Assembly (NCBI GenBank): GCA_965223545.1
Contig: OZ245006.1
Coordinates: 2,112,001 to 2,176,000, forward strand
Length of the DNA: 64,000 nucleotides
Reading direction: 5' to 3'
DNA from: Planctomycetota bacterium
Lineage (GTDB): Bacteria; Planctomycetota; UBA1135; UBA2386
Shown: one piece after another, positions 2-51,616 of the stretch
How positions within the stretch are numbered: position 1 is the first letter of the stretch
How the letters are laid out: each line of letters starts with the position of its first letter
Program-made: the position numbers and the translations under genes
Notes under the pieces: model-generated
Seen by the model: only the letters and a program-made list of their open reading frames with translations
Database searches by the model: none
What the model was told of the DNA's origin: nothing

Positions 2-1198
2 GGCGATTACATCGACAAGAAGAACCGCGCGCTGTTCGCCGATTCCCGCGAGGCAGACCGGCTGCTGAGCATGTTCTACCACCGCGCCGCCTACTCCAAC
101 TACGAGGACCACGAGCGCGGCAAGGCACTGCGCCTGGCATGGCGGGCGTGGCGACTCCACCCCGGCCTCAAGCAGCGGCGGACGTTGGCCAAGGCCCTGG
201 TGCCCCTCAGCCTGCACCGCGCCTACCGGCGCGGCGAGGTGCGCCGGTGGGTGCCGTTCCTCGGCTATCCGCTGCACAGTGCGCGCCGGCACCGCCCGTT
301 CTTCGTCATCGGTGTGGCCCGCTCGGGCAACACTCTGTTCCGCCGGATCCTGACATCCCACTCGGGCTTGCACATCCCGCCCGAGACGTTCGCGATGGGC
401 CAGTGCATCCGCAAATGGCAGCGCTACAGCAGCAAGCTCGCCTGGCCCGACCTGGTCCACCTGACGCTGGCCGAGTACGAGCTGCATCCCGAGTTCCACA
501 CGATGGAGACGTGGCTCGGGCCGTTGGCGGACCGGCTGACGAACTGCGATCCCAGCCTGCGCAACCTCGCCCACGTGCTCAACTCGATCTACCAGTTCCA
601 CGCCGAGGAGCACGGCGTGCGCTTCGAGCGATGGGGCGACAAGACTCCGTTCTACTCGCTCGACGACACGATGGTGGAGAACGACAAGCCGAGGCGGCTG
701 GGCCACGGCACTCCACAGACGTTGGAGCGCATCCGAAGAGTCTTCCCCGACGCGCAGTTCCTGCACATCTACCGCGACGGCTGTGACGTCGCCTACTCGT
801 TCCTGCGCGGCAACTTCGTCTCGCGCCCCACCGAGGCCGCCTGGCGCTGGACGCACACCGTCGGCCAAACCCTCAACTTCGTGCGCAAGTACCCGCAAGC
901 GTGCCACGAGCTCCGCTACGAGGACCTGGTGGCGGACTCGGAAACGACGATCCGCGGGGTCTGCGAGTTCCTCGGCGTCGAGTTCGAGCCGGCGATGCTG
1001 CACTCCGAAGGCACGGCGGCCAAGCTCGGTGACGTGCCCGAGTGGAGCTGGCATCGGCAGGTGACCAAGCCGATCAACGCCCGCAACCCGGGCAAGGGCC
1101 GCGCCTACTTCTCCGAGCATCAAAAGCGCGCACTGCAGGAGATCATGGGCGCCCAGCTCGAGGCTCTCGGCTACCGCCCCTGCACGGACACCCCGTAG
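2..1198 (+). CDS. Sulfotransferase-domain protein, 5'-truncated by the window edge (possibly fused to an upstream glycosyltransferase)
   Basis: Frame is open from nt 2; 5'-PSB motif FVIGVARSGNTL, WGDKTP, 3'-PB motif IYRDGCDVAYS, LRYEDLV. Confidence 0.85.
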   Translation, partial: GDYIDKKNRALFADSREADRLLSMFYHRAAYSNYEDHERGKALRLAWRAWRLHPGLKQRRTLAKALVPLSLHRAYRRGEVRRWVPFLGYPLHSARRHRPFFVIGVARSGNTLFRRILTSHSGLHIPPETFAMGQCIRKWQRYSSKLAWPDLVHLTLAEYELHPEFHTMETWLGPLADRLTNCDPSLRNLAHVLNSIYQFHAEEHGVRFERWGDKTPFYSLDDTMVENDKPRRLGHGTPQTLERIRRVFPDAQFLHIYRDGCDVAYSFLRGNFVSRPTEAAWRWTHTVGQTLNFVRKYPQACHELRYEDLVADSETTIRGVCEFLGVEFEPAMLHSEGTAAKLGDVPEWSWHRQVTKPINARNPGKGRAYFSEHQKRALQEIMGAQLEALGYRPCTDTP

Positions 1199-43642: not shown

Positions 43643-46600
43643 ATGGCGCCCATGTTCCCAAGGCCCCCCTCGTTACGAGCCTCTCTCTACGGGTTGTCGG
43701 TCGCGTTCGCCGCAGCCGCGCCAACGAGTTCGCAGACCCACACGCTCGACATCGCAGTCCGCACTGGAGCGACGTTCAGCTCGATCGACGCGCAGGTTGC
43801 GGTCAACGATCAGCGCACCATCGCGTTCACCGGCGCGGATGCCAAAGGCAACGGTGTGTTCGCGATGCCCGACCAGGGACAACCAAGAGCCCTCGCGCCA
43901 CAGGCCAGCAGCCGCAACTACTCGGCTGCCGCGATCAACGACACCCTGGTTCCTGAGGTCACCACGCGCGAACGCGCTTCGGGAGCGCCGCCGGTGTACT
44001 TCTTCCGTCGCTGGAGCACTTCCGGGCTGACCGCGACCATCGTCGGGCGTTCGCCCGGAGATTTCGACTCGGCCGTGTCTCGCCTCGACATCAACAACCG
44101 CTCGACGGTCGTTGGAGTCGCACTCGTCGGGGGTCTTTCGTCGACCGCACTCGTCGCCGGATCGGCGTCTCCTCCGACTCGGCTAGCGACCTACTCCGGC
44201 CTGCAGCAGCTGTGGCCGCAGATCTCCGACGACGACGTGGTGGTGGTCACCGATCCGCAGTCGCGGGTCGTCACCTGGCCGTATCCCACGGGGACCGGCG
44301 AAGTCTTTGCCAGCCCAGGGAGCGGCTTCTCCTCGGTCGGAGTGAAGCCCGGCATCAGCGATGACGGGAGCACCGTCGCTTACATCGGCGACAAGGGCGC
44401 GGGCTCGGGGATCTTCATCGGGCTGCGCGGCATGGGAGCCTCCTACCAGTTGCTGGTCGCTGGCGCCGGCACCGAGAACTTCACCGCCATCGACGGCAAC
44501 CACCGCGCAGGAGTCACCGCATCCGGCTCTCTCAGCACGGGCAAGTGGGTCATGCTCGCGTTCCATGGAACGCGCAGCGGCAAGAGCGGGGTGTACTTCG
44601 CACAGCTGCGAGTTCGCGACGTGTCGGGCACGCTGATGGTCGACCGCAAGTCGATCACCGAGATCGCGACGATCAGCACCGCGGTCGGCGGCGCCAACCT
44701 GACCTACGTCGATCTACATCACCCGATCAACGACCGCGGGGACGTCTGCTGTTTCGCCAGCCTCGATGACGGCTCGTCGGCGATCCTGTTGGCCCGCCGC
44801 ACCACGACCGAGATCCGCGACGCCGTGGACTTCGTCGACCCCGCGACGCTGACCGTGTACAGCTCGCCACAGAAGCTCGACGGCGAAGACGGCCAAGAAC
44901 GGATCGGCGTAGCCGCCGATGGCGCTGCACAGCTGTTGTTGCGCGCCACCGTGCCGGGGCCCGGCACGGTGACGTTCAAGTTCGCCGAGCCTAGCGCCAG
45001 CGGGCAAGGCGAGCTGGCTGCGCCCGGCAGTGCGTTCGGCACCGGTGCGGTCACCGCCGCCGCGACGAACGCGAATCCCACCGGCAACTACCGCGGCTAT
45101 TGCCTGTATCGGGGGCCCGCCGACTTCGTCCGGCCGGCGACCAACGACGACGGCGAGGCAACCCGAGCTGTCCCCATCGACGTCGAGTTCCAACCCACGG
45201 CGGGACCGACTACCGGAGACCGCGTCGAGATCGAGCTCTGCCGCCCACCCGTGGTCCTGGCGCACGGGCTGTGGTCCGATGCCGCGACCTGGAAGGGGTC
45301 GTTCGCCGCTCTGCAATCCGGCAGCGAGCCGCGCTTCTTCAGCCATGCAATCGATTACAGCGGCCCACTCGCATCGGCGCCGTTCTCGGCGAACGTGCCG
45401 ACCGTCCGGCTCGGCATTCAGATTGCGCGCAAACTCGCGCACGATGCCGGATTCGCCGCATCCCAGGTCGACTGGGTCGGGCACAGCATGGGCGGTGTGC
45501 TGCCACGCGTCTACTACGAGCGCGCTGCACGCAACGTCGGGGTCGCCTGGAAGAACGCGGCCAACTTCGGCGGCGGTGAGATCCACAAGCTGATCGTGCT
45601 CAACTCGCCGCAGTGGGGCTCACCGTTCGGCAACATGCTGCCCATCGTCACCCAGAATCTCGCGATCAAGGGCTTCGTCCAGGAGTACCTGGAGGGGTAT
45701 GAGGACAATGGAGCCATCGCCAATCTGGCCGAGGGCAGTCCGGCGTATCAATCGATCGGCGCCACTCCGATCCCCACCCACGCACTCGTCGGAGTCGGAG
45801 TGGAGACCCAGATCGCGGGCGCGACGACGACGGTGAATGCTCTGGCCAGGTTTGTGCCACCGCCAACCAGCACGTTTCTGCGGATTGCCGGGCTGTTCGC
45901 GCGCCTGACCAACTCGCTGGTCTACCGCGGCCACCGCCACGACCTGATCGTGCTCGAGAACAGCCAATCCGCGGGCCTCCCCACGAACGCCGTCACGATC
46001 TACAACGGCGGCCTGACCTACCTCCACATGGGCGTCACCAGCAACCAGAGCTACTACGACAAAACCGTCGACCTGTTGCACGCGCCGGTCGCCGGGCCCG
46101 AGTTCGCGCCGCTGCCGGCGCCCAACCTCAATCCCGCGCGTCTGGCGACACCGCCCACCCCCACAGCCACGGCCAACTTGAGCTTCGTGACACCTGCGCT
46201 GGGCGCGACGCTGCAGCCCAACCAATCGGTGACCGTCGAGGTCACACCGACCGGGGGCTTCACCCCGACCTCGGTGGACCTCTTCCTCGGCAGCGACTAC
46301 GCCACCGTGACCTCCCCGCCGTGGCGACACACGTTCACCGTGCCGGCCGAATCGGTGGGCGCGATCGACATCTTGGCGATCGGGGTCGATGCCGGAGGAT
46401 CGCCGGCACTCGCAGGCCCACAGGCGCACGGCATCAACGTCAACGCAACCCTCCAATCAGTGACGGTCGGGCCGCAGGGCACCGCCCTGGTGGAGCCACT
46501 CGAGGAAACCCGGCTCCAAGTCCTCGGCCAGTACTCCGACGGCGTGACGCGCGATCTGACGCGCGCCGCGACCGGCACGACGTACTCGGCCGCGCCAGCC

Positions 46601-47122
46601 GGGATCGTTCGCGTCTCCGCGGATGGACACGTCACCGTGTCCGGCCAAGGCACGGCGACGATCACCGCGTCGAACGCGGGCTTGTCGGGCAACACCGACG
46701 TCGACGTCGCTTTCCCTGCGACGACCGGCTACGGCACGGGAACCGCCGGTGCCGGCGGATTGGTGCCCACCCTCAATGCTCGCGGCGGCCTACCACAACC
46801 CGGCAATCCCGGCTTTCAGCTCGTCTTCGACCGGATCCGCGGCGGCGCACCGGGACAGCTCATCATCGCCGCCCAACCGGCGGACCTGAGCTGGCAGGGT
46901 CTCCGCATCCTGTTCCTACCCATACTGCTGATCAACTTCCCGATGGTCGCGAGCGGGCCGACGGGACAAGCCGGGGCAGGGCAAGTCGTCGTGCCGATCC
47001 CGATCCCCGCACGACCGAGTCTCATCGGCGGCAGCTTCTTCGTGCAGGGCTTCTTCGCCGACGCCGCCGCTGCGCCAGGGCTGTCCCACACGCAAGGACT
47101 CGCCGTCACGATCCAACCCTGA
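43643..47122 (+). CDS. Large secreted multidomain alpha/beta-hydrolase (propeller-like N-terminus, Ig-like domains, C-terminal beta domain)
   Basis: Signal peptide; LAHGLWS, GHSMGG nucleophile elbow, NSPQWGS, HDLIV; GQYSDGVTRDLT Big-2-like motif. Confidence 0.8.
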   Translation: MAPMFPRPPSLRASLYGLSVAFAAAAPTSSQTHTLDIAVRTGATFSSIDAQVAVNDQRTIAFTGADAKGNGVFAMPDQGQPRALAPQASSRNYSAAAINDTLVPEVTTRERASGAPPVYFFRRWSTSGLTATIVGRSPGDFDSAVSRLDINNRSTVVGVALVGGLSSTALVAGSASPPTRLATYSGLQQLWPQISDDDVVVVTDPQSRVVTWPYPTGTGEVFASPGSGFSSVGVKPGISDDGSTVAYIGDKGAGSGIFIGLRGMGASYQLLVAGAGTENFTAIDGNHRAGVTASGSLSTGKWVMLAFHGTRSGKSGVYFAQLRVRDVSGTLMVDRKSITEIATISTAVGGANLTYVDLHHPINDRGDVCCFASLDDGSSAILLARRTTTEIRDAVDFVDPATLTVYSSPQKLDGEDGQERIGVAADGAAQLLLRATVPGPGTVTFKFAEPSASGQGELAAPGSAFGTGAVTAAATNANPTGNYRGYCLYRGPADFVRPATNDDGEATRAVPIDVEFQPTAGPTTGDRVEIELCRPPVVLAHGLWSDAATWKGSFAALQSGSEPRFFSHAIDYSGPLASAPFSANVPTVRLGIQIARKLAHDAGFAASQVDWVGHSMGGVLPRVYYERAARNVGVAWKNAANFGGGEIHKLIVLNSPQWGSPFGNMLPIVTQNLAIKGFVQEYLEGYEDNGAIANLAEGSPAYQSIGATPIPTHALVGVGVETQIAGATTTVNALARFVPPPTSTFLRIAGLFARLTNSLVYRGHRHDLIVLENSQSAGLPTNAVTIYNGGLTYLHMGVTSNQSYYDKTVDLLHAPVAGPEFAPLPAPNLNPARLATPPTPTATANLSFVTPALGATLQPNQSVTVEVTPTGGFTPTSVDLFLGSDYATVTSPPWRHTFTVPAESVGAIDILAIGVDAGGSPALAGPQAHGINVNATLQSVTVGPQGTALVEPLEETRLQVLGQYSDGVTRDLTRAATGTTYSAAPAGIVRVSADGHVTVSGQGTATITASNAGLSGNTDVDVAFPATTGYGTGTAGAGGLVPTLNARGGLPQPGNPGFQLVFDRIRGGAPGQLIIAAQPADLSWQGLRILFLPILLINFPMVASGPTGQAGAGQVVVPIPIPARPSLIGGSFFVQGFFADAAAAPGLSHTQGLAVTIQP

Positions 47123-47176
47123 TGGTACGGAGCCTGGCTCCGTACCTTCGATCCAACCCTGATGGTACGGAGCCTG
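47109..47176 (+). repeat. 40-bp tandem duplication containing a palindrome; second copy interrupted by IS110
   Basis: Unit CGATCCAACCCTGATGGTACGGAGCCTGGCTCCGTACCTT at 47109-47148; second copy 47149-47176 resumes at 48823. Confidence 0.9.
47124..47146. terminator. Hairpin between convergent genes (possible bidirectional terminator or REP; IS110 target)
   Basis: GGTACGGAGC-CTG-GCTCCGTACC, 1 nt after stop 47122; no U-tract. Confidence 0.5.
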
Positions 47177-47185
47177 ACCTGAAAC

Positions 47186-48568
47186 TCACCCAGCCTCGAC
47201 GATCGGTATGAGCTTGTACCCGAGGGATTTAGCGTTCTGTCGGAGTCCGACGATGCGTCGCTGGGTGAAGCGCTCCTCGTAGGCCTTGGCGCCTTCGTCT
47301 ACGTAGTCCTGGCCGAACTTCAGCATGCGGTAGATGAGCAGGGCCAGTTTGCGGGCGATGGCAAAGATGGCGACGTTGCCGTCCTTCGCGCGGGCGATCT
47401 TGCGGAAGTGTGCGCCGAGAGCTGTCTGAGTACGTTGGAGGGACAGGGCGGCCATCCGGAGGACCGTGGCGATCCTGCTGACCGCGATGTTGTTGCGGTG
47501 CTTCTTGATGCGCTTTCCACCCGAGACGGCTTGACGTGGGCACAGGCGTAGCCAGGAGACGAAGTGCTTCTCGGTCGGGAAAGCATCGAGGTCGTAGCCG
47601 ACCTCGGTGAGCACGATCATGGCCGTGCTCGGGCTGATACCGTCGATTCGCGTGAGATCACACCCGACGAGCCGGCAGAGGGCATCGCGAAGCTCCCGGC
47701 CGCCCTTCGTTCGGATGCTCCTCTCCTTGCGGGGGTCTGGATGCTCGGGGACGTCGGCCGTCTTGGCTTCCTCCGGTTGCAGGTCCTCGATCATCGCCAT
47801 CAATCGCTTCTCGACCGACTCGATCTCGTGGTCGGTGTGCTCGAGCATCCGCAAGCCCGAAGCGAGAGTGAAGATGTGCTCCTCGATCCAGGTCCCTTGC
47901 AAGTGATCCGCGAGCTCCTTCTCGGAGATCTTGCAGCGCGGATCACGCAGTCTGGCGAGCGCTCGAGGGTCGCGTTCACCAGCGAGAATCGCGCGGATGA
48001 TCGCGAGGCCGGTCTTGCCGGTGATGTCCGTTACCGCGCGATGGATCGCCACGTTCATCTGATCCAGTGACCGCTGCATCAACTGCGTGTGGCGCGTGCG
48101 CTGCGCGATCAAAGACGCGGCATGGCGTTGCAGGGTCCGCAACGCACAGATGTCCTTCGGAGGCCGGAACGAAGCGCGAATGAGGCCATAGGTGTGTAGC
48201 TTCTGCAGCCAACTGCAATCGCTGGCATCGGACTTGGAGCGGCCCGGCACGTTCTTCACCTCGCGGGCATTCGCGAGGATGACCTCGAAGCCTCTCGACT
48301 CGAGTAGCTCGTAGACGGGAATCCAGTAGACATAGGTGCTCTCCATCGCGACGGATCGCACTCCGAGCTCCTCCAGCCAGTCCGCGAGCGCCTCTAGTTG
48401 GGGCGTCGTCGTTCCGAATCGCTTGATCGGACGACTGCCGTCGGGTGCTGCTGCGCACACCCAGTGCTCGCGGCTGCCGATGTCGATTCCGGCGGCGTTG
48501 GGCTTCACGACTGGTAATACTTCCGCTGCGGGCTTCTTGCCCTTCCTCGTTCTGCCCTTCCGAGCCAT
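47186..48568 (-). CDS. IS110 family transposase/recombinase
   Basis: DEDD RuvC-like motifs AGIDIG, AMEST, KSDASD; C-terminal RIDGIS and SGG; AAGGAGG RBS. Confidence 0.96.
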   Translation of the reverse strand: MARKGRTRKGKKPAAEVLPVVKPNAAGIDIGSREHWVCAAAPDGSRPIKRFGTTTPQLEALADWLEELGVRSVAMESTYVYWIPVYELLESRGFEVILANAREVKNVPGRSKSDASDCSWLQKLHTYGLIRASFRPPKDICALRTLQRHAASLIAQRTRHTQLMQRSLDQMNVAIHRAVTDITGKTGLAIIRAILAGERDPRALARLRDPRCKISEKELADHLQGTWIEEHIFTLASGLRMLEHTDHEIESVEKRLMAMIEDLQPEEAKTADVPEHPDPRKERSIRTKGGRELRDALCRLVGCDLTRIDGISPSTAMIVLTEVGYDLDAFPTEKHFVSWLRLCPRQAVSGGKRIKKHRNNIAVSRIATVLRMAALSLQRTQTALGAHFRKIARAKDGNVAIFAIARKLALLIYRMLKFGQDYVDEGAKAYEERFTQRRIVGLRQNAKSLGYKLIPIVEAG

Positions 48569-48579
48569 ACTTCATCCTC

Positions 48580-48780
48580 CTTGTTGTGGTGGGCCCGGCC
48601 CGAGGCGGCGATCAAACGAATCTGACCTGCGGGAGTGGGCACGGCGACGTGCCCCTCACCAGTGAAGGATGGCCAACTCGGACCCAGACTGGCTCTGGGG
48701 CAAACGTGCTCCAGTGGCTATTGGGGGCGTAGCTGCCGGGCCCCTCACACGTTCCCCGCCCCCTTCCTCAGCGGCTAGTT
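48580..48780 (-). ncRNA. Candidate IS110 bridge RNA (boundaries approximate)
   Basis: Hairpin-rich non-coding end with a 7-nt match to target+core (48689-48695) and an 8-nt match to donor+core (48622-48629). Confidence 0.6.
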
Positions 48781-48833
48781 TCCTGCCCTGAAGGGCCGAC
48801 AAAATCTGTCGGGGCAGGACTGGCTCCGTACCT

Positions 48834-51482
48834 TCAGAAGGGGCGGTAGAAGACGCGGAGCTCCTGGACCGACACGGATTGGGCCAGGCCGCGGTCGAAC
48901 AGGAGCTGGAAGCGCAGGACGGTGGCGTCGGCGGTGTCCAGCACCACTTCGCCGGCCGGGGCAAAGCCGCCGACATAGCGCAGCCATCCGCTCACGGTCG
49001 TCGGGTCGACGTTGCCGCCGGGGTCGTACTGGGCACCTTGGATCCACAGACGCACGGGCTGACCATCGGTCGCCAACACGCCCACAGTGGGATCGTCGCT
49101 GTAGGTGATCGGCACGCCATCGACGATCGCGTCCAGCTCGTAGCGCAAGAACTCCGGCGGGAACAGCTGCTGCGTGCCGATCCAGAGCGACTGCGATGCG
49201 ACGACGGGATCGCGGTCGACGAGCCCGGCGATGCTGGTGCCCGGGCCACTCGCCGGCGTCACGCTCCCGATCAACGACGCCGCGCCGCCGCCGGCGACCT
49301 CGACGCGCACCTGACCGCGACCGCCCGCTCCCCCGCGCGCCTCCATCGTGGCCGCCGGCGGGCCGAACGTCGTGCCCGCCGACCCGCCGGCGACGTCCAA
49401 CCCACCGTCCTGGTCGATGCGTTGGCCCACTTGCAACAGGATGCTGCCGCCCGAGCCGCCGCCGCCGGGCACCGCGTAGGCGTTGGTCGGCGCCAACACG
49501 CCGGCCATGCCGGTGGTGGAACCGCCGGAGGCGTCGATGGCACCCGTATCCGACACGCTCAGATCGCGGCCCGCGCGCACCGCGACCGCGCCGCCCCCGG
49601 CGGCACCACCGCCGCCCGACCGCCAGGAAACCAACGCCGCGATCGAGAAGAACGGGTGGCCGCCCGCGCCGCCGCCGCCCGCCCCGCCGACCACGAAGTG
49701 GTCCAACGAGCTCGACCCCGCCGGCCGCGGCAACAAAGAGAACTCGCGGCCGGCACGCCCGTCGGGGCCGGCTTCGGCCGGGTCGCCGTTGTGGGTCGCG
49801 ACGACCGTGCCGGCCTCTCCGGGCGCCATGAGCGCGCCCCCACCCCCACCCGCCGCGACCTGCGACGAGTACAACCCCGCCACCTGCGTGGTGACCACCG
49901 ACGCGTTGCGTCCATCGGCGGGAAACAACGCAGAACCCCGTCCGCCGCTGCCCGCGGCGCGCGCCGCATAGGCGTGGCCGGCCGACAAGACCGCGTCCCG
50001 CCCCCTCTCGCCGGAGAAGCGCGGCAGGGCGCCGAGTCCGTTGCATCGATCCGCGCCGGCCCCACCGCGTGCGCTCCCGGCCGCCCCACCCGCGGCGCCG
50101 CCATCGGCACCGGGCTGCCCGGTGACGGAGTCGCCGTCCGGCATCGGCCGCCCGACGCCCGACAGGTCCAGCACGCCGTCGATGACGGCGTTGCCGCTGA
50201 CCGAGATGCGCGCCGGGTGGGCTCCCACGAAGCGCACCGTCGTGCCCGCGCCGATGTGGAACTGGGAGAAACGGTAAACGCCATCGGTCACGCGCAGGTC
50301 GGTGCCGGTGCGCGTGCGAACGCGGGAGATCAGCGAGTCCTCGGTGTTCCACTCGTAGACCCCCGGCGCGATTTCGGTGCCGTCGGCCGGGTCGAACACG
50401 CCGTGGATCGCGTCGCCGCCAATGGCACCGGGCAGGGCTTCACCGTTGGCCCAGACCCCGGAAGACGCCCGGTGGTCCAGCTGCAAGTCGTTGTCGAAGG
50501 TCTCGACCAGCGCCACCTCCGCGCGCTGGGAGGGCGCCGTGACGAAGGAGAACACTTTCTCAGCGGCGGGCTTGCCGGACAGATCGACGACGCGCGGCGT
50601 CACCCGGACTTCGACACAGAGCCCACCGGGGACTTCCGAGTCGGGCCGGAAGCTGCCGACCGTCAGCTGACGCAAGGGGTCGTTGAACAGGTCCCAAGTG
50701 CCGGGCACCACGACGGGCGCCGAGGCCGGGTCGCACTGCACACCGCCGCCCGGGGCCGGGCGAGTGTCGCGCACCGTGACCGCCACCGGCTGCGCGCGGT
50801 TGCTCGACGTGATGAACGGAGCCTGGTCGATCACCTCGGAAAACTCGAGCACGATCGGGGTCAGCGGATCGACGCCGGTCGCCAACACCGGCGACAGCAG
50901 CTCGGCACTCGGCGGCTGGCCGTCGAAATCGACGACGCCAAGGGTGACGCTCAACGAGCACCGATAGTCCTCGAGCAACGGATCGCCCGCCGTCGAGCGC
51001 AAGACGCCGACCTGATTGCCGCCACGCACGTAGAGCTGATAGGTCTCCGCCGGACGAAAGCCGAAGAAGCTCTGGGAACCCACGACGCGGATCTCGGGCA
51101 CGAACATCACCGTCGGGCCATTGGTCAGCAACTGACCCACCGGCTCCTCACCGGTCGTCGTGCGCAGCGAAACCGTCGCCGACGACACCGTCGCGGGATC
51201 GACATCCTGACTGAACACCAGCACGATCGGCTGGTTCTGCGCAATCTGGTTGATGCCGCATCCGGCCTGCGTGCAGCCCAGGTTGCACGACTGCAAACAC
51301 AGAGCCGGCCCCGCGGCCGAGGGGGCCGTGCACGACGACTGCAACACCGGTCCAGCACTGCCGCCGCCAGAGCACCCGACACCACCGAGCGCCATCGTGA
51401 CTCCGAGGAGCCCGGCCAAGGAGCGGCCGGCCCGAAGGGCAGGGCGGGACTCGACCACGCGATCAGGGGAGCGCTCGGGCAT
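48834..51482 (-). CDS. Large putative lipoprotein with Ig-like (Big_5/SbsA) domains and Gly-rich repeats; start uncertain
   Basis: Lipobox-like LGGVGC; IVLVFSQDVDPATV and IVLEFSEVID...VVDLSG domains; GGAGGGG / GGGGSGGSI repeats. Confidence 0.75.
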   Translation of the reverse strand: MPERSPDRVVESRPALRAGRSLAGLLGVTMALGGVGCSGGGSAGPVLQSSCTAPSAAGPALCLQSCNLGCTQAGCGINQIAQNQPIVLVFSQDVDPATVSSATVSLRTTTGEEPVGQLLTNGPTVMFVPEIRVVGSQSFFGFRPAETYQLYVRGGNQVGVLRSTAGDPLLEDYRCSLSVTLGVVDFDGQPPSAELLSPVLATGVDPLTPIVLEFSEVIDQAPFITSSNRAQPVAVTVRDTRPAPGGGVQCDPASAPVVVPGTWDLFNDPLRQLTVGSFRPDSEVPGGLCVEVRVTPRVVDLSGKPAAEKVFSFVTAPSQRAEVALVETFDNDLQLDHRASSGVWANGEALPGAIGGDAIHGVFDPADGTEIAPGVYEWNTEDSLISRVRTRTGTDLRVTDGVYRFSQFHIGAGTTVRFVGAHPARISVSGNAVIDGVLDLSGVGRPMPDGDSVTGQPGADGGAAGGAAGSARGGAGADRCNGLGALPRFSGERGRDAVLSAGHAYAARAAGSGGRGSALFPADGRNASVVTTQVAGLYSSQVAAGGGGGALMAPGEAGTVVATHNGDPAEAGPDGRAGREFSLLPRPAGSSSLDHFVVGGAGGGGAGGHPFFSIAALVSWRSGGGGAAGGGAVAVRAGRDLSVSDTGAIDASGGSTTGMAGVLAPTNAYAVPGGGGSGGSILLQVGQRIDQDGGLDVAGGSAGTTFGPPAATMEARGGAGGRGQVRVEVAGGGAASLIGSVTPASGPGTSIAGLVDRDPVVASQSLWIGTQQLFPPEFLRYELDAIVDGVPITYSDDPTVGVLATDGQPVRLWIQGAQYDPGGNVDPTTVSGWLRYVGGFAPAGEVVLDTADATVLRFQLLFDRGLAQSVSVQELRVFYRPF

Positions 51483-51616
51483 GAGAACCTGGGACCGGAT
51501 CGGCACCATCGCCAAGGAGGCGAGCACCGGAGACATTGCTGGAGGACCGGGAAACCCCGATTGTAGTCCCGCTGCGGCCCGATCTGGGGGGGCAACTTCA
51601 GCCCGACCGAGCCCCG

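What the first reader, a model, noticed from the sequence alone, without database searches (positions are those of the whole stretch)
47174..48822. IS110 element with readable core, target, donor and candidate bridge-RNA guides
Seen: junctions GGAGC|CTG|ACCTGAAAC and GGGCAGGA|CTG|GCTCC give target GGTACGGAGC-CTG-GCTCCGTACC and circle junction GGGCAGGA-CTG-ACCTGAAAC. In the 250-nt non-coding end, read in transposase sense, GAGCCAG (48695-48689) equals target-left plus core. Further 3', CAGGTCAG (48629-48622) equals donor-left plus core. Both are in the same orientation, both end at the core, and they are in target-then-donor order. Known: IS621 uses a bridge RNA with target- and donor-binding loops in that order. 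Inference: this is a bridge recombinase with a longer (460-aa) protein. I could not identify the right-hand guides.
Basis: partly seen in the sequence, partly recalled or inferred. Interest (0 to 1): 0.75.

Follow-up and report, generated by a model that had tools for sequence, protein, structure and literature searches.

The report
IS110 jumping gene with bridge RNA
This is an intact, recently active RNA-guided jumping gene of the known IS110 kind, whose own small RNA spells out both its landing site and its own ends, though it is wired somewhat differently from the textbook example.

Summary
Window 47174-48819 (minus strand) is a 1646-bp IS110-family element. It has 23 near-identical copies in this genome, all inserted at the centre of a REP-like palindrome.

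A 150-nt structured RNA (48592-48741) lies upstream of the 460-aa DEDD/Tnp recombinase. My covariance model found it upstream of relatives in 84 further places.

- **Left guides.** GAGCCAG (left target guide) and CAGGTCAG (left donor guide) sit in unpaired segments. The homologous positions change with each relative's own left flank and right end.
- **Core.** The shared core is the dinucleotide AG. The window's CAG is AG plus a coincident C.
- **Right target guide, newly found.** It is AGCC at 48716-48719, 5' of the left guide. That order matches IS1111 seekRNAs and is opposite to IS621.
- **Handshake-like extension.** The two bases after the left target guide copy the first bases of the element.
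- **No canonical right donor guide.** At the homologous position an 8-nt word (48663-48670) is a same-sense copy of a site 20-30 bp inside the left end. Its role is unexplained.

Verdict: a known mechanism in a variant architecture. Expression and circle formation were not shown.

The parts
47174..48819 (-). The insertion sequence: 1646 bp counting one copy of the AG core. Left end at 48819, right end and core at 47174-47175.
   Evidence: The empty site at 47124-46 fixes the boundaries. There are 23 full copies at 99.3-100% identity. Relatives measure 1573-1763 bp between guide-defined ends.
47186..48568 (-). Recombinase gene, 460 aa: RuvC-like DEDD domain, long coiled-coil region, Tnp domain.
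   Evidence: Pfam PF01548 (residues 26-171) and PF02371 (305-383); NF033542. D29, E76, D114 and D117 are invariant in 19 of 19 sequences. S349-G350 align to IS621 S241-G242. AF2 pLDDT 87.4. Best Foldseek match 8wt9_C, E 8e-13.
48592..48741 (-). Core of the bridge RNA, 150 nt, closed by helix P1. It holds a target module and a donor module of the same layout: [right guide]-CAYTGG-hairpin-CCC-[left guide]-AG-NN.
   Evidence: RNAalifold on 11 sequences. Model R1 scores 143.4 bits here. On 82 distinct sequences 92.2% of cells pair against 71.1% in shuffles, and 28 of 33 pairs show compensatory changes.
48716..48719 (-). Right target guide (RTG), AGCC. It is complementary to the top strand at core G plus RT1-3 (GGCT).
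   Evidence: Family-wide Watson-Crick pairing at RT1-4 is 27, 31, 31 and 24 of 56, against about 15 +/- 3.2 in permutations. The sum is 113 against 60 +/- 6.6, reached by 0 of 2000 permutations. The conserved C pairs with core G in 53 of 56.
48689..48695 (-). Left target guide (LTG), GAGCCAG: LT -5..-1 plus the AG core, in the same sense as the top strand, so it pairs with the bottom strand.
   Evidence: The homologous word matches the relative's own left flank over 6 or more contiguous nt in 29 of 38 unique elements, against 80 of 1392 non-self pairs. In the larger set 65 of 83 match.
48687..48688 (-). Two bases after the LTG core (TC) that copy the first two bases of the left end (RD1-2): a handshake-like extension.
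   Evidence: LTG+1 equals RD1 in 50 of 53 (permutation 27.4 +/- 3.0). LTG+2 equals RD2 in 32 of 53 (14.2 +/- 3.1). There is no such relation to RT1-2.
48663..48670 (-). x2 (ATCCTTCA): an 8-nt variable word at the position homologous to the RTG in the donor module. It is a same-sense copy of x1.
   Evidence: It shares 6 or more nt with the element's own left end in 19 of 38, against 1.2% of 1362 controls, and 6 or more of 8 in 28 of 51, against 6.8%. Identity stops sharply at the 8 nt. It has no match to the flanks or the right end, and no complement inside the element.
48622..48629 (-). Left donor guide (LDG), CAGGTCAG: LD -6..-1 plus the AG core.
   Evidence: In 29 of 34 evaluable elements, the longest match ending in AG between the RNA 3' half and the region after the stop codon is 7-9 nt. 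It always lies 29-34 nt from the RNA 3' end. In the larger set 66 of 83 match.
48797..48811 (-). Left-end hairpin (CGACAGATTTTGTCG), 8 nt inside the element.
   Evidence: A hairpin of different sequence stands at the same place in relatives.
48789..48796 (-). x1 (GCCCTTCA): the left-end site copied by x2, directly 3' of the hairpin.
   Evidence: In the window 6 of 8 positions are identical.
48777..48782 (-). Left copy of the subterminal inverted repeat (GAAACT), 37 nt inside the left end.
   Evidence: An inverted repeat of 6 or more nt between the right-end subterminus and LE +31..+42 occurs in 51 of 55 unique elements.
47181..47186 (-). Right copy of the subterminal inverted repeat (AGTTTC), 7 nt from the right end. 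It overlaps the stop codon.
47124..47146 (.). Uninterrupted copy of the target palindrome (a REP-like element), within a 40-bp tandem duplication.
   Evidence: The genome holds 85 empty GGAGCCAGGCTCC sites against 1.5 expected, and 23 occupied ones.

Best explanation
An intact, recently active IS110-family insertion sequence. Its 5' non-coding end encodes a bridge RNA that, together with the 460-aa DEDD/Tnp recombinase, selects the insertion site and recognises the element's own ends by base pairing.

**Shown by comparison**
- The RNA has two modules of the same layout. The target module reads the right target arm (top strand, 3-5 nt plus core G) with its 5' guide. It reads the left target arm plus the AG core (bottom strand, 7 nt) with its 3' guide.
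- The next 1-2 nt of that 3' guide match the first bases of the element, in the manner of the IS621 handshake guides.
- The donor module's 3' guide reads the right end of the element plus the core (7-8 nt).
- In this genome the programmed site is the centre of a REP-like palindrome between genes. About a fifth of such sites (23 of 108) are occupied.

**Inferred**
- The chemistry (circle formation, strand exchange through a Holliday junction) follows IS621.
[quoted passage not shown] It would thereby hold the left end in place of a canonical right donor guide.
For: **Protein family and fold**
- Searches place it with IS621 and ISCro4.
- The catalytic DEDD residues are invariant. The Ser-Gly pair aligns to IS621 S241-G242.

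**Activity**
- The genome holds 23 copies at 99.3-100% identity, all with open frames.

**RNA**
- A conserved structure lies directly upstream of the gene in 44 of 78 loci. In the second search it gave 85 matches over 100 sources.
- 28 of 33 pairs show compensatory changes. 92.2% of cells pair, against 71.1% in shuffles and 33-49% with slid partners.

**Guide covariation**
- LTG.
- LDG.
- RTG.
- Extension into RD1-2.
- LDG+1 never equals RD1 (0 of 53, 4.4 expected). This fits the IS621 rule that handshake bases must not pair with their own DNA (rule read in passages of PMC11208158).
- The core AG is invariant at the LTG position in 82 of the 83 RNAs listed that carry an LTG string; in the first set one further RNA, L110, had AA.

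**Target**
- 85 empty and 23 occupied REP-like sites.
Against: **Missing direct evidence**
- There is no evidence of the transcript. No RNA run holds the stretch.
- No sigma-70-like promoter was found in the integrated copy.
- No circle junction was seen in the assembly or in the contigs of four runs. Contigs cannot exclude rare circles.

**Right donor guide**
- No canonical one was found. Complementarity to AG+RD is no better for an element's own RNA than for others': 6 nt or more in 20 of 55 against 866 of 2970.
- The DNA-pairing role of x2 therefore rests only on same-sense covariation and on its homologous position.

**Circularity and model limits**
- Boundaries of single-copy relatives were set by the left guides themselves, so LT/LD identity at -1..-4 is partly circular. 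Non-self controls and the unbiased search address this.
- The alignment used for pair counts was fitted to the model.
- The helix around x2 is weak: 76.7% paired.
- Model R1 found nothing, at default filters, on two named plasmid relatives with 44-45% protein identity.
Confidence: 0.9

Rival explanations
1. The x2/x1 pair is not a DNA guide. Either it is part of an RNA-level control, or it marks two binding sites for the same factor. In the control version, an antisense transcript reading outward through the left-end hairpin would pair with x2 in the bridge RNA and limit transposition, as RNA-OUT does in IS10. The comparison with IS10 is recalled, not from a call.
For: x1 sits directly beside a conserved hairpin, a typical antisense-RNA layout. 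x2 pairs with the strand opposite to the one a right guide reads in IS621. The site lies 20-30 bp from the crossover.
Against: x2 stands at exactly the position of the RTG in the sister module and ends in the same conserved CA before CAYTGG. No outward promoter was found, though that scan is weak evidence. A protein site would not be expected to vary freely between relatives while staying identical within each element.
Confidence: 0.3
2. The conserved 5' structure is only a leader that controls translation or stability of the transposase mRNA. The matches to the flanks would then be by-products of inserting into palindromes.
For: The RNA ends about 10 nt before the ribosome-binding site. In the window's own minimum-energy fold the LTG lies in a small local hairpin. 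The target is a palindrome, so partial self-matches are easy.
Against: The guide words differ between relatives, and they change with each relative's own flank and right end, most of which are not palindromes. The local hairpin is not conserved. The protein family is known to need such an RNA (PMC11208160, PMC11187229; passages seen).
Confidence: 0.04
3. The element is a dead relic, and the guide matches only record a past insertion.
For: No circle junction or transcript was seen.
Against: All 23 copies have full open frames at 99-100% protein identity. Two sequence variants each have several copies, 6 and 17. Near-identical sequence is held by runs of several other studies.
Confidence: 0.05

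Closest known systems
IS621 and ISCro4 (IS110 group) bridge recombinase with bridge RNA (Durrant et al. 2024, PMC11208160; Hiraizumi et al. 2024, PMC11208158; passages read)
   Same: - Same domain order and fold.
- DEDD plus a Ser-Gly catalytic loop.
- RNA in the non-coding end upstream of the gene.
- Target module before donor module.
- Left guides pair with the bottom strand and include a 2-nt core.
- A short right target guide pairs with the top strand.
- A 1-2-nt extension reaches into the non-cognate DNA arm.
- The target is a REP-like repeat.
   Different: - The order inside each module is right guide then left guide; IS621 has left then right.
- The extension follows the left guide and reads RD1-2 on the bottom strand. 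In IS621 the handshake bases follow the right guides and read the top strand.
- The core is AG in RNA sense, not CT. If the DNA is viewed from the other strand, the core (CT), the guide order and the handshake position all match IS621, with guide lengths swapped.
- Subterminal inverted repeats are 6-9 nt, against 2-3 nt.
- There is no proximal right donor guide.
- The protein is 460 aa against 326 aa, with about 60 extra residues between the two long helices and a C-terminal helix. This is inferred from the AF2 secondary structure.
IS1111-type elements and their seekRNA (ISEc11, ISPa11, ISKpn4; Siddiquee et al. 2024, PMC11187229; passages read)
   Same: - The segment complementary to the top strand precedes the segment that matches the bottom strand.
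- Subterminal inverted repeats are present.
- A 7-bp terminal extension lies beyond one repeat.
   Different: - The non-coding region is upstream of the gene, not downstream.
- The repeats are 6-9 nt, against 11-13 bp.
- The second extension is 31-42 nt, with a hairpin and x1, instead of 3 bp.
- The 7-bp extension is at the end after the gene, not before it.
- Whether the protein branches with IS1111 types was not tested.
ISPpu10 (Na et al. 2026 preprint, 10.64898/2026.03.19.712850; abstract only)
   Same: An IS110 element whose insertions all fall in copies of one conserved intergenic repeat that forms a stem-loop.
   Different: In ISPpu10 the stem-loop is a 5' extension of the target. Here the crossover lies at the centre of the palindrome, and a conserved stem-loop lies in the donor's left end.

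Membership tests
IS110 family (bridge / seekRNA-guided DEDD recombinases) | RuvC-like DEDD domain followed by the Tnp (Transposase_20) domain | tested here: met
   PF01548 E 1.3e-26 and PF02371 E 6.3e-14. NF033542 scores 248.2 bits against a cut-off of 140. Foldseek best match is IS621, E 8e-13, TM 0.71 on the target.
IS110 family (bridge / seekRNA-guided DEDD recombinases) | Catalytic residues: DEDD and the Tnp-domain serine | tested here: met
   D29, E76, D114 and D117 are invariant in 19 of 19. S349-G350 align to IS621 S241-G242. S349 is Ser in 14 and Thr in 5 of 19; G350 is invariant.
IS110 family (bridge / seekRNA-guided DEDD recombinases) | Site-specific insertion without target duplication; a short core shared by target and joined ends | tested here: met
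   All 23 copies sit in one site type. Comparison of the empty site with the filled one shows only the core repeated.
IS110 family (bridge / seekRNA-guided DEDD recombinases) | Structured RNA in the long non-coding end whose loops covary with target and donor | tested here: met
   Structure. LTG, LDG and RTG covariation.
IS110 family (bridge / seekRNA-guided DEDD recombinases) | Right donor guide complementary to the top strand of RD next to the core | tested here: not met
   An element's own RNA is no better than others': 20 of 55 against 866 of 2970 with 6 nt or more. No column signal.
IS110 family (bridge / seekRNA-guided DEDD recombinases) | The RNA is made and binds the recombinase; a circular intermediate with abutted ends forms | not testable with these tools
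   No RNA run is listed. Contigs of 4 runs show no joints. The joined-end word is absent from the assembly.
IS110 group in the narrow sense (IS621, ISEc21) | Non-coding region upstream of the gene | tested here: met
   251 nt upstream and 11 nt downstream.
IS110 group in the narrow sense (IS621, ISEc21) | Bottom-strand (left) guide precedes top-strand (right) guide | tested here: not met
   The RTG (RNA positions 23-26) precedes the LTG (47-53).
IS1111 group | Subterminal inverted repeats (11-13 bp per Siddiquee, 7-17 bp per Durrant) | tested here: inconclusive
   Repeats are present in 51 of 55 but are 6-9 nt, and asymmetric: 7 nt from one end and 31-42 nt from the other.
IS1111 group | Non-coding region and RNA downstream of the gene | tested here: not met
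   The RNA lies upstream at every locus with a hit. A few loci show a further hit after the gene, read here as an adjoining second copy.
IS1111 group | Top-strand complement precedes bottom-strand match in the RNA | tested here: met
   compared with the passage seen.
Rfam families | Match to a curated RNA family | tested here: not met
   The only match is a chance one (HOTAIR_2, E 0.82) over 46500-49500.

The most novel reading that the evidence does not exclude
This lineage recognises its donor differently from IS621. Both donor guides read the same DNA strand. The guide at the right-donor position does not read the bases next to the crossover. Instead it reads an 8-bp site 20-30 bp inside the left end, beyond a conserved hairpin and beside a subterminal inverted repeat. 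On the other strand this site looks like a second, inverted right-end half-site: repeat, 3-6 nt, then the complement of x1, which begins TG where x1 ends CA. That would imply a looped or hairpin-extruded left end, or a two-end synapse, in the donor complex. It would be a new geometry for bridge recombination and a third programmable donor word.
Probability: 0.35. Interest if true: 0.7.

Novelty: new variant of a known kind. Interest (0 to 1): 0.5.

Why it matters
Bridge recombinases are being mined as programmable DNA-insertion tools.

**What this lineage adds**
- It is a well-populated and widespread lineage. Homologues turned up in many phyla, in 401 plasmid records and in more than 600 metagenome stretches.
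- All four guide positions can be read from sequence.
- It combines features of the two described groups: an upstream RNA as in IS110, but the guide order and subterminal repeats of IS1111.

**What it suggests**
- It fits the idea, argued in the report, that one ribonucleoprotein architecture can read a site from either strand.
- It gives natural examples of handshake-like bases on the left guide.
- It raises a testable question about how the left end of the donor is held when no proximal right donor guide exists.

**For the host**
- It shows an element that has filled about a fifth of a REP-like repeat family lying between genes.

Tried and rejected
- **Rfam.** A scan of 46500-49500 at E up to 1 gave only a chance match.
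- **Relatives of the host.** 3 of 60 sampled genomes had a homologue, at 35-43% identity and none close. These gave no help with the RNA.
- **Canonical right donor guide.** I tried column covariation and the longest complement to AG+RD anywhere in the left end. Neither beat controls. Hits in the P5 hairpin (GGGGCA against RD4-9 in the window) recur in only a few GC-rich relatives, so I set them aside.
- **The window's TCCTGCCC/GGGCAGGA stem in the left end.** It is not conserved in relatives.
- **x2 against other regions.** Left flank, right flank and right end, in both senses, showed no enrichment. Nor did the rest of the RNA and leader, or a reverse complement anywhere in the element (7 of 37 against 16%).
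- **The TCA at +12..14 of the right flanks.** It is simply the REP consensus.
- **An alternative closing helix for the donor module (GGC/GCC).** It could not be placed on fixed columns, so I do not claim it.
- **Expression.** No RNA holder is listed.
- **Circles.** Laying contigs of 4 runs gave no joints.
- **Promoter.** The sigma-70 scan of 47000-49000 found none.
- **Named plasmid relatives.** Model R1 gave 0 hits at default filters on Dinoroseobacter shibae pDSHI01 and an Agrobacterium tumefaciens plasmid. Without filters there was only a 10.1-bit hit upstream of the Agrobacterium gene.
- **Earlier notes of this scan.** Nothing was found by sequence or in this genome.
- **LDG+1 and LDG+2 against RT1-2.** There is only a modest excess at +1: 20 of 53 against 13.0 +/- 2.1.
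Full report
**What is in the window.** On the minus strand, a 460-aa open frame (47186-48568) is preceded by 251 non-coding bases and followed by 11. The + strand reads GGAGC|CTG|ACCTGAAAC at the low end and GGGCAGGA|CTG|GCTCC at the high end. An uninterrupted GGTACGGAGCCTGGCTCCGTACC lies 27 bases away, at 47124-47146. The boundaries of the element are therefore fixed: 47174-48819, counting one core. Genome-wide word frequencies predict 0.030 and 0.004 such occurrences in 251 nt of one strand.

**The protein.**
- Pfam finds DEDD_Tnp_IS110 (residues 26-171) and Transposase_20 (305-383).
- NCBIfam NF033542, 'IS110 family RNA-guided transposase', scores 248 bits against a cut-off of 140.
- The only solved relatives by sequence are the IS621 and ISCro4 recombinases.
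- An AlphaFold model built on 19 homologues (pLDDT 87.4) matches IS621 chains best (E 8e-13, TM 0.71 on the target).
- D29, E76, D114 and D117 are invariant in 19 of 19 homologues. S349-G350 align to the catalytic S241-G242 of IS621. S349 is Thr in 5 of 19.
- Compared with IS621 (domain limits read in PMC11208158), the extra length has three sources. There is an N-terminal tail and a C-terminal helix (427-448). There are also about 60 residues of short helices between the two long helices (138-170 and 229-263). This is read from the model's secondary structure and is an inference.
- Siddiquee et al. give 315-450 aa for IS110-type transposases (passage), so the length is near the known upper range.

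**Copies and target.**
- The 8.1-Mb, 70% G+C genome holds 23 full-length copies, 6 identical to the window's and 17 at 99.3-99.5%, plus one 111-nt fragment.
- All have full open frames.
- All 23 are flanked on the left (transposase sense) by ...GAGCCAG. 22 of 23 are flanked on the right by GCTCC....
- The 12 variable sites among copies avoid every guide.
- The target is a REP-like imperfect palindrome, with consensus about TGAACGTACGGAGCC-A-GGCTCCGATTCATCAC. The 13-mer GGAGCCAGGCTCC occurs 85 times empty (1.5 expected) and 23 times occupied.
- In the window, the stop codons of the two convergent flanking genes (47120-47122 and 48834-48836) lie in the arms of the repeat.
- Among 60 sampled relatives of the host only 3 have a homologue, at 35-43% identity.

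**A conserved RNA.**
- Scans of genome and metagenome collections gave 75 and 79 loci with homologues of 33-78% identity from many phyla.
- Aligning the upstream regions of the ten closest showed conserved blocks separated by variable words.
- RNAalifold on a 150-nt core (window 48592-48741) gave a closing helix P1, helix P2, a hairpin, helix P3, and hairpins P4 and P5. 12 of 33 pairs showed compensatory changes.
- A covariance model built from it hit 44 of 78 loci. In a second search it gave 85 matches over 100 sources.
- All hits are on the gene's strand. Nearly all lie just upstream of the gene. A few loci show a second hit after the gene, read here as an adjoining second copy.
- On the 82 distinct sequences, 92.2% of cells pair, against 71.1% in shuffles (0 of 500 reach it) and 33-49% with slid partners. 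28 of 33 pairs show changes on both sides.
- The helix around x2 is the weakest, at 76.7%.
- The alignment was fitted to the model, which favours the structure.
- Rfam has no family for it.

**The left guides are real.**
CAGGTCAG lies in the unpaired stretch after P5.
- In relatives these stretches hold different words that always end in AG.
- *Left target guide.* The LTG word matches the relative's own left flank over 6 or more contiguous bases ending in AG in 29 of 38 unique elements. The match lies 63-114 nt upstream of the model. Only 80 of 1392 non-self pairs do as well.
- *Left donor guide.* An unbiased search looked for the longest match ending in AG between the RNA's 3' half and the region after the stop codon. 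It gave 7-9 nt in 29 of 34 evaluable elements, always 29-34 nt from the RNA's 3' end. In the DNA the match always lies just after a GTT(T/A)C-like motif.
- *Larger set.* 65 of 83 RNAs gave a left boundary, 66 a right boundary and 58 both. Element lengths were 1573-1763 bp.
- The base before AG differs between the two guides in many relatives, so the core is the dinucleotide AG.
- Durrant et al. state that in IS621 the left guides pair with the bottom strand and include the core (passages). That holds here.

**The right target guide.**
- Column covariation over 55 RNA-target pairs showed an antiparallel diagonal. RT1-RT4 are complementary to four columns in the variable stretch 5' of the first hairpin (Z 3.8, 5.0, 4.5, 2.8).
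- I then counted from the conserved A before CAYTGG. Watson-Crick pairs at RT1-4 number 27, 31, 31 and 24 of 56, against about 15 +/- 3.2 in permutations. The sum is 113 against 60 +/- 6.6, reached by 0 of 2000 permutations.
- The next RNA base, a conserved C, pairs with core G in 53 of 56. The base after it faces core A unpaired in 52 of 56.
- In the window the guide is AGCC (48716-48719), pairing with G+GCT.
- The right guide thus precedes the left guide, the opposite of IS621. Siddiquee et al. report this order for IS1111-type seekRNAs (passages).

**A handshake-like extension.**
- The base after the LTG core equals the first base of the element in 50 of 53 (27.4 +/- 3.0 expected). The second equals the second base in 32 of 53 (14.2 +/- 3.1). 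Neither relates to RT1-2.
- The left target guide therefore spells the left junction of the product (LT-AG-RD1-2); in the window it is GAGCCAG+TC.
- The base after the LDG core equals RT1 a little more often than chance (20 of 53 against 13.0 +/- 2.1). It never equals RD1 (0 of 53 against 4.4 +/- 1.4).
- Hiraizumi et al. showed for IS621 that two bases next to the right guides pair with the non-cognate DNA after exchange, and that pairing with the cognate DNA blocks exchange (passages). The logic here is the same, but placed on the left guides and the other strand.
- Viewed from the strand antisense to the gene, the core is CT. The 5' guide then matches the left arm, the 3' guide is complementary to core plus right arm, and the extension is complementary to the donor's left arm. 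That is exactly IS621's topology, with the guide lengths swapped.
- I take this as the likely physical homology. It is an inference.

**The donor's left end.**
- No segment of the RNA is complementary to AG+RD more than other elements' RNAs are (20 of 55 against 866 of 2970 with 6 nt or more).
- The two modules have the same layout: [right guide]-CAYTGG-hairpin-CCC-[left guide]-AG-NN. At the right-guide position of the donor module stands an 8-nt variable word, x2. In the window it is ATCCTTCA, at 48663-48670.
- x2 is a same-sense copy of x1, a word 20-30 nt inside the left end and directly after a conserved hairpin. It shares 6 or more nt in 19 of 38 against 1.2% of controls. It shares 6 or more of 8 in 28 of 51 against 6.8%. 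Close relatives show joint changes, for example ATTGAACA and ATGGAACA.
- Identity stops sharply at the 8 nt.
- x2 has no match to the flanks or the right end and no complement inside the element.
- The left end also carries an inverted copy of the motif that precedes LD at the right end. This occurs in 51 of 55, over 6-9 nt. It lies 7 nt from the right end but 31-42 nt from the left.
[quoted passage not shown] Where x1 ends in CA, as in the window's group, that complement begins TG. It resembles an inverted right-end half-site, and x2 has the form of a right guide to it.
- What this means mechanically is open. My preferred reading, at about one in three, is a displaced donor guide that holds the left end. 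The main rival is an RNA-level control.

**What is not shown.**
- Expression: no RNA run holds the stretch.
- A promoter: none was found by a sigma-70 scan.
- Circles: the joined-end word is absent from the assembly, and there are no joints in contigs of four runs.
- Strand order of cleavage.
- The branch of the protein relative to IS1111 types.

**Prior work.**
- I read passages of Durrant 2024, Hiraizumi 2024 and Siddiquee 2024. I read the abstracts and outlines of Hiraizumi 2026, Na 2026 and Sun 2025. I read section 8 of the Evo-PIN preprint.
- That preprint reports 86 covariance models over 32,190 bridge RNAs, many unlike IS621 in structure. Its supplements were closed, so this family may already be among them.
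- Three literature searches turned up no description of a same-sense subterminal donor word, or of this hybrid layout. That is not proof of absence.
- Earlier AI notes of this scan report reversed guide order in IS110 elements of other genomes. I did not test those notes.

**Verdict.** This is a new variant of a known kind: a bridge-RNA element with an upstream RNA, IS1111-like guide order, an AG core, left-guide handshake bases, asymmetric subterminal repeats, and an unexplained 8-nt donor word.

Noticed in passing
window 47110-47149 and 47150-47176 + 48823-48835: A 40-bp tandem duplication comprising the end of the upstream gene, its stop codon and the whole REP-like palindrome. The first copy is intact and the second is split by the element. 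The origin was not worked out.
   Followed up: partly
G000:C1 near 4332374 and 1013440 (flanks printed): Other copies have duplicated or nested REP arms beside the element. For example, the left arm occurs twice before the element and the right arm twice after it, as if the element together with its flanking arms had landed in the centre of another repeat.
   Followed up: no
G000:C1 4826231-4829691: Two copies lie 175 bp apart with the same 45-nt left flank. The second copy is the only one of the 23 whose right flank is not GCTCC. This is probably a local duplication or rearrangement.
   Followed up: no
L166, L175, L208, L152, L162, L145, L200; G000:C1 1714945-1718279: A second hit of the RNA model lies just after the gene, meaning adjoining copies. 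Some left flanks look like right ends of the same family. In the host, two copies sit in the two halves of an inverted REP pair, 48 bp apart.
   Followed up: partly
alignment A3, column of window residue S349: The residue aligned to the catalytic serine of IS621 is threonine in 5 of 19 homologues.
   Followed up: no
L212:527-674 (Agrobacterium tumefaciens plasmid pAtCFBP6623a): A weak unfiltered model hit (10.1 bits) lies upstream of a homologue with 44% protein identity. Both core positions there appear to read AA instead of AG. If real, the core covaries in both guides.
   Followed up: no
left flanks of relatives, positions -12 to -9 before the core: About half of the target left flanks carry G-T-Y at the register where the element's right end has GTTTC or GTCAC. 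Own-versus-shuffled identity is modestly raised at several positions (z 2-3.6). Part of this is due to insertion beside other copies.
   Followed up: partly
window 43643-47122 (+) and 48834-51536 (-): Two large convergent open frames (1159 and 900 aa) flank the repeat. The 900-aa gene runs in the same direction as the element, and its stop codon is 12 nt before the insertion. Read-through from it could therefore transcribe the bridge RNA once the palindrome is split.
   Followed up: no
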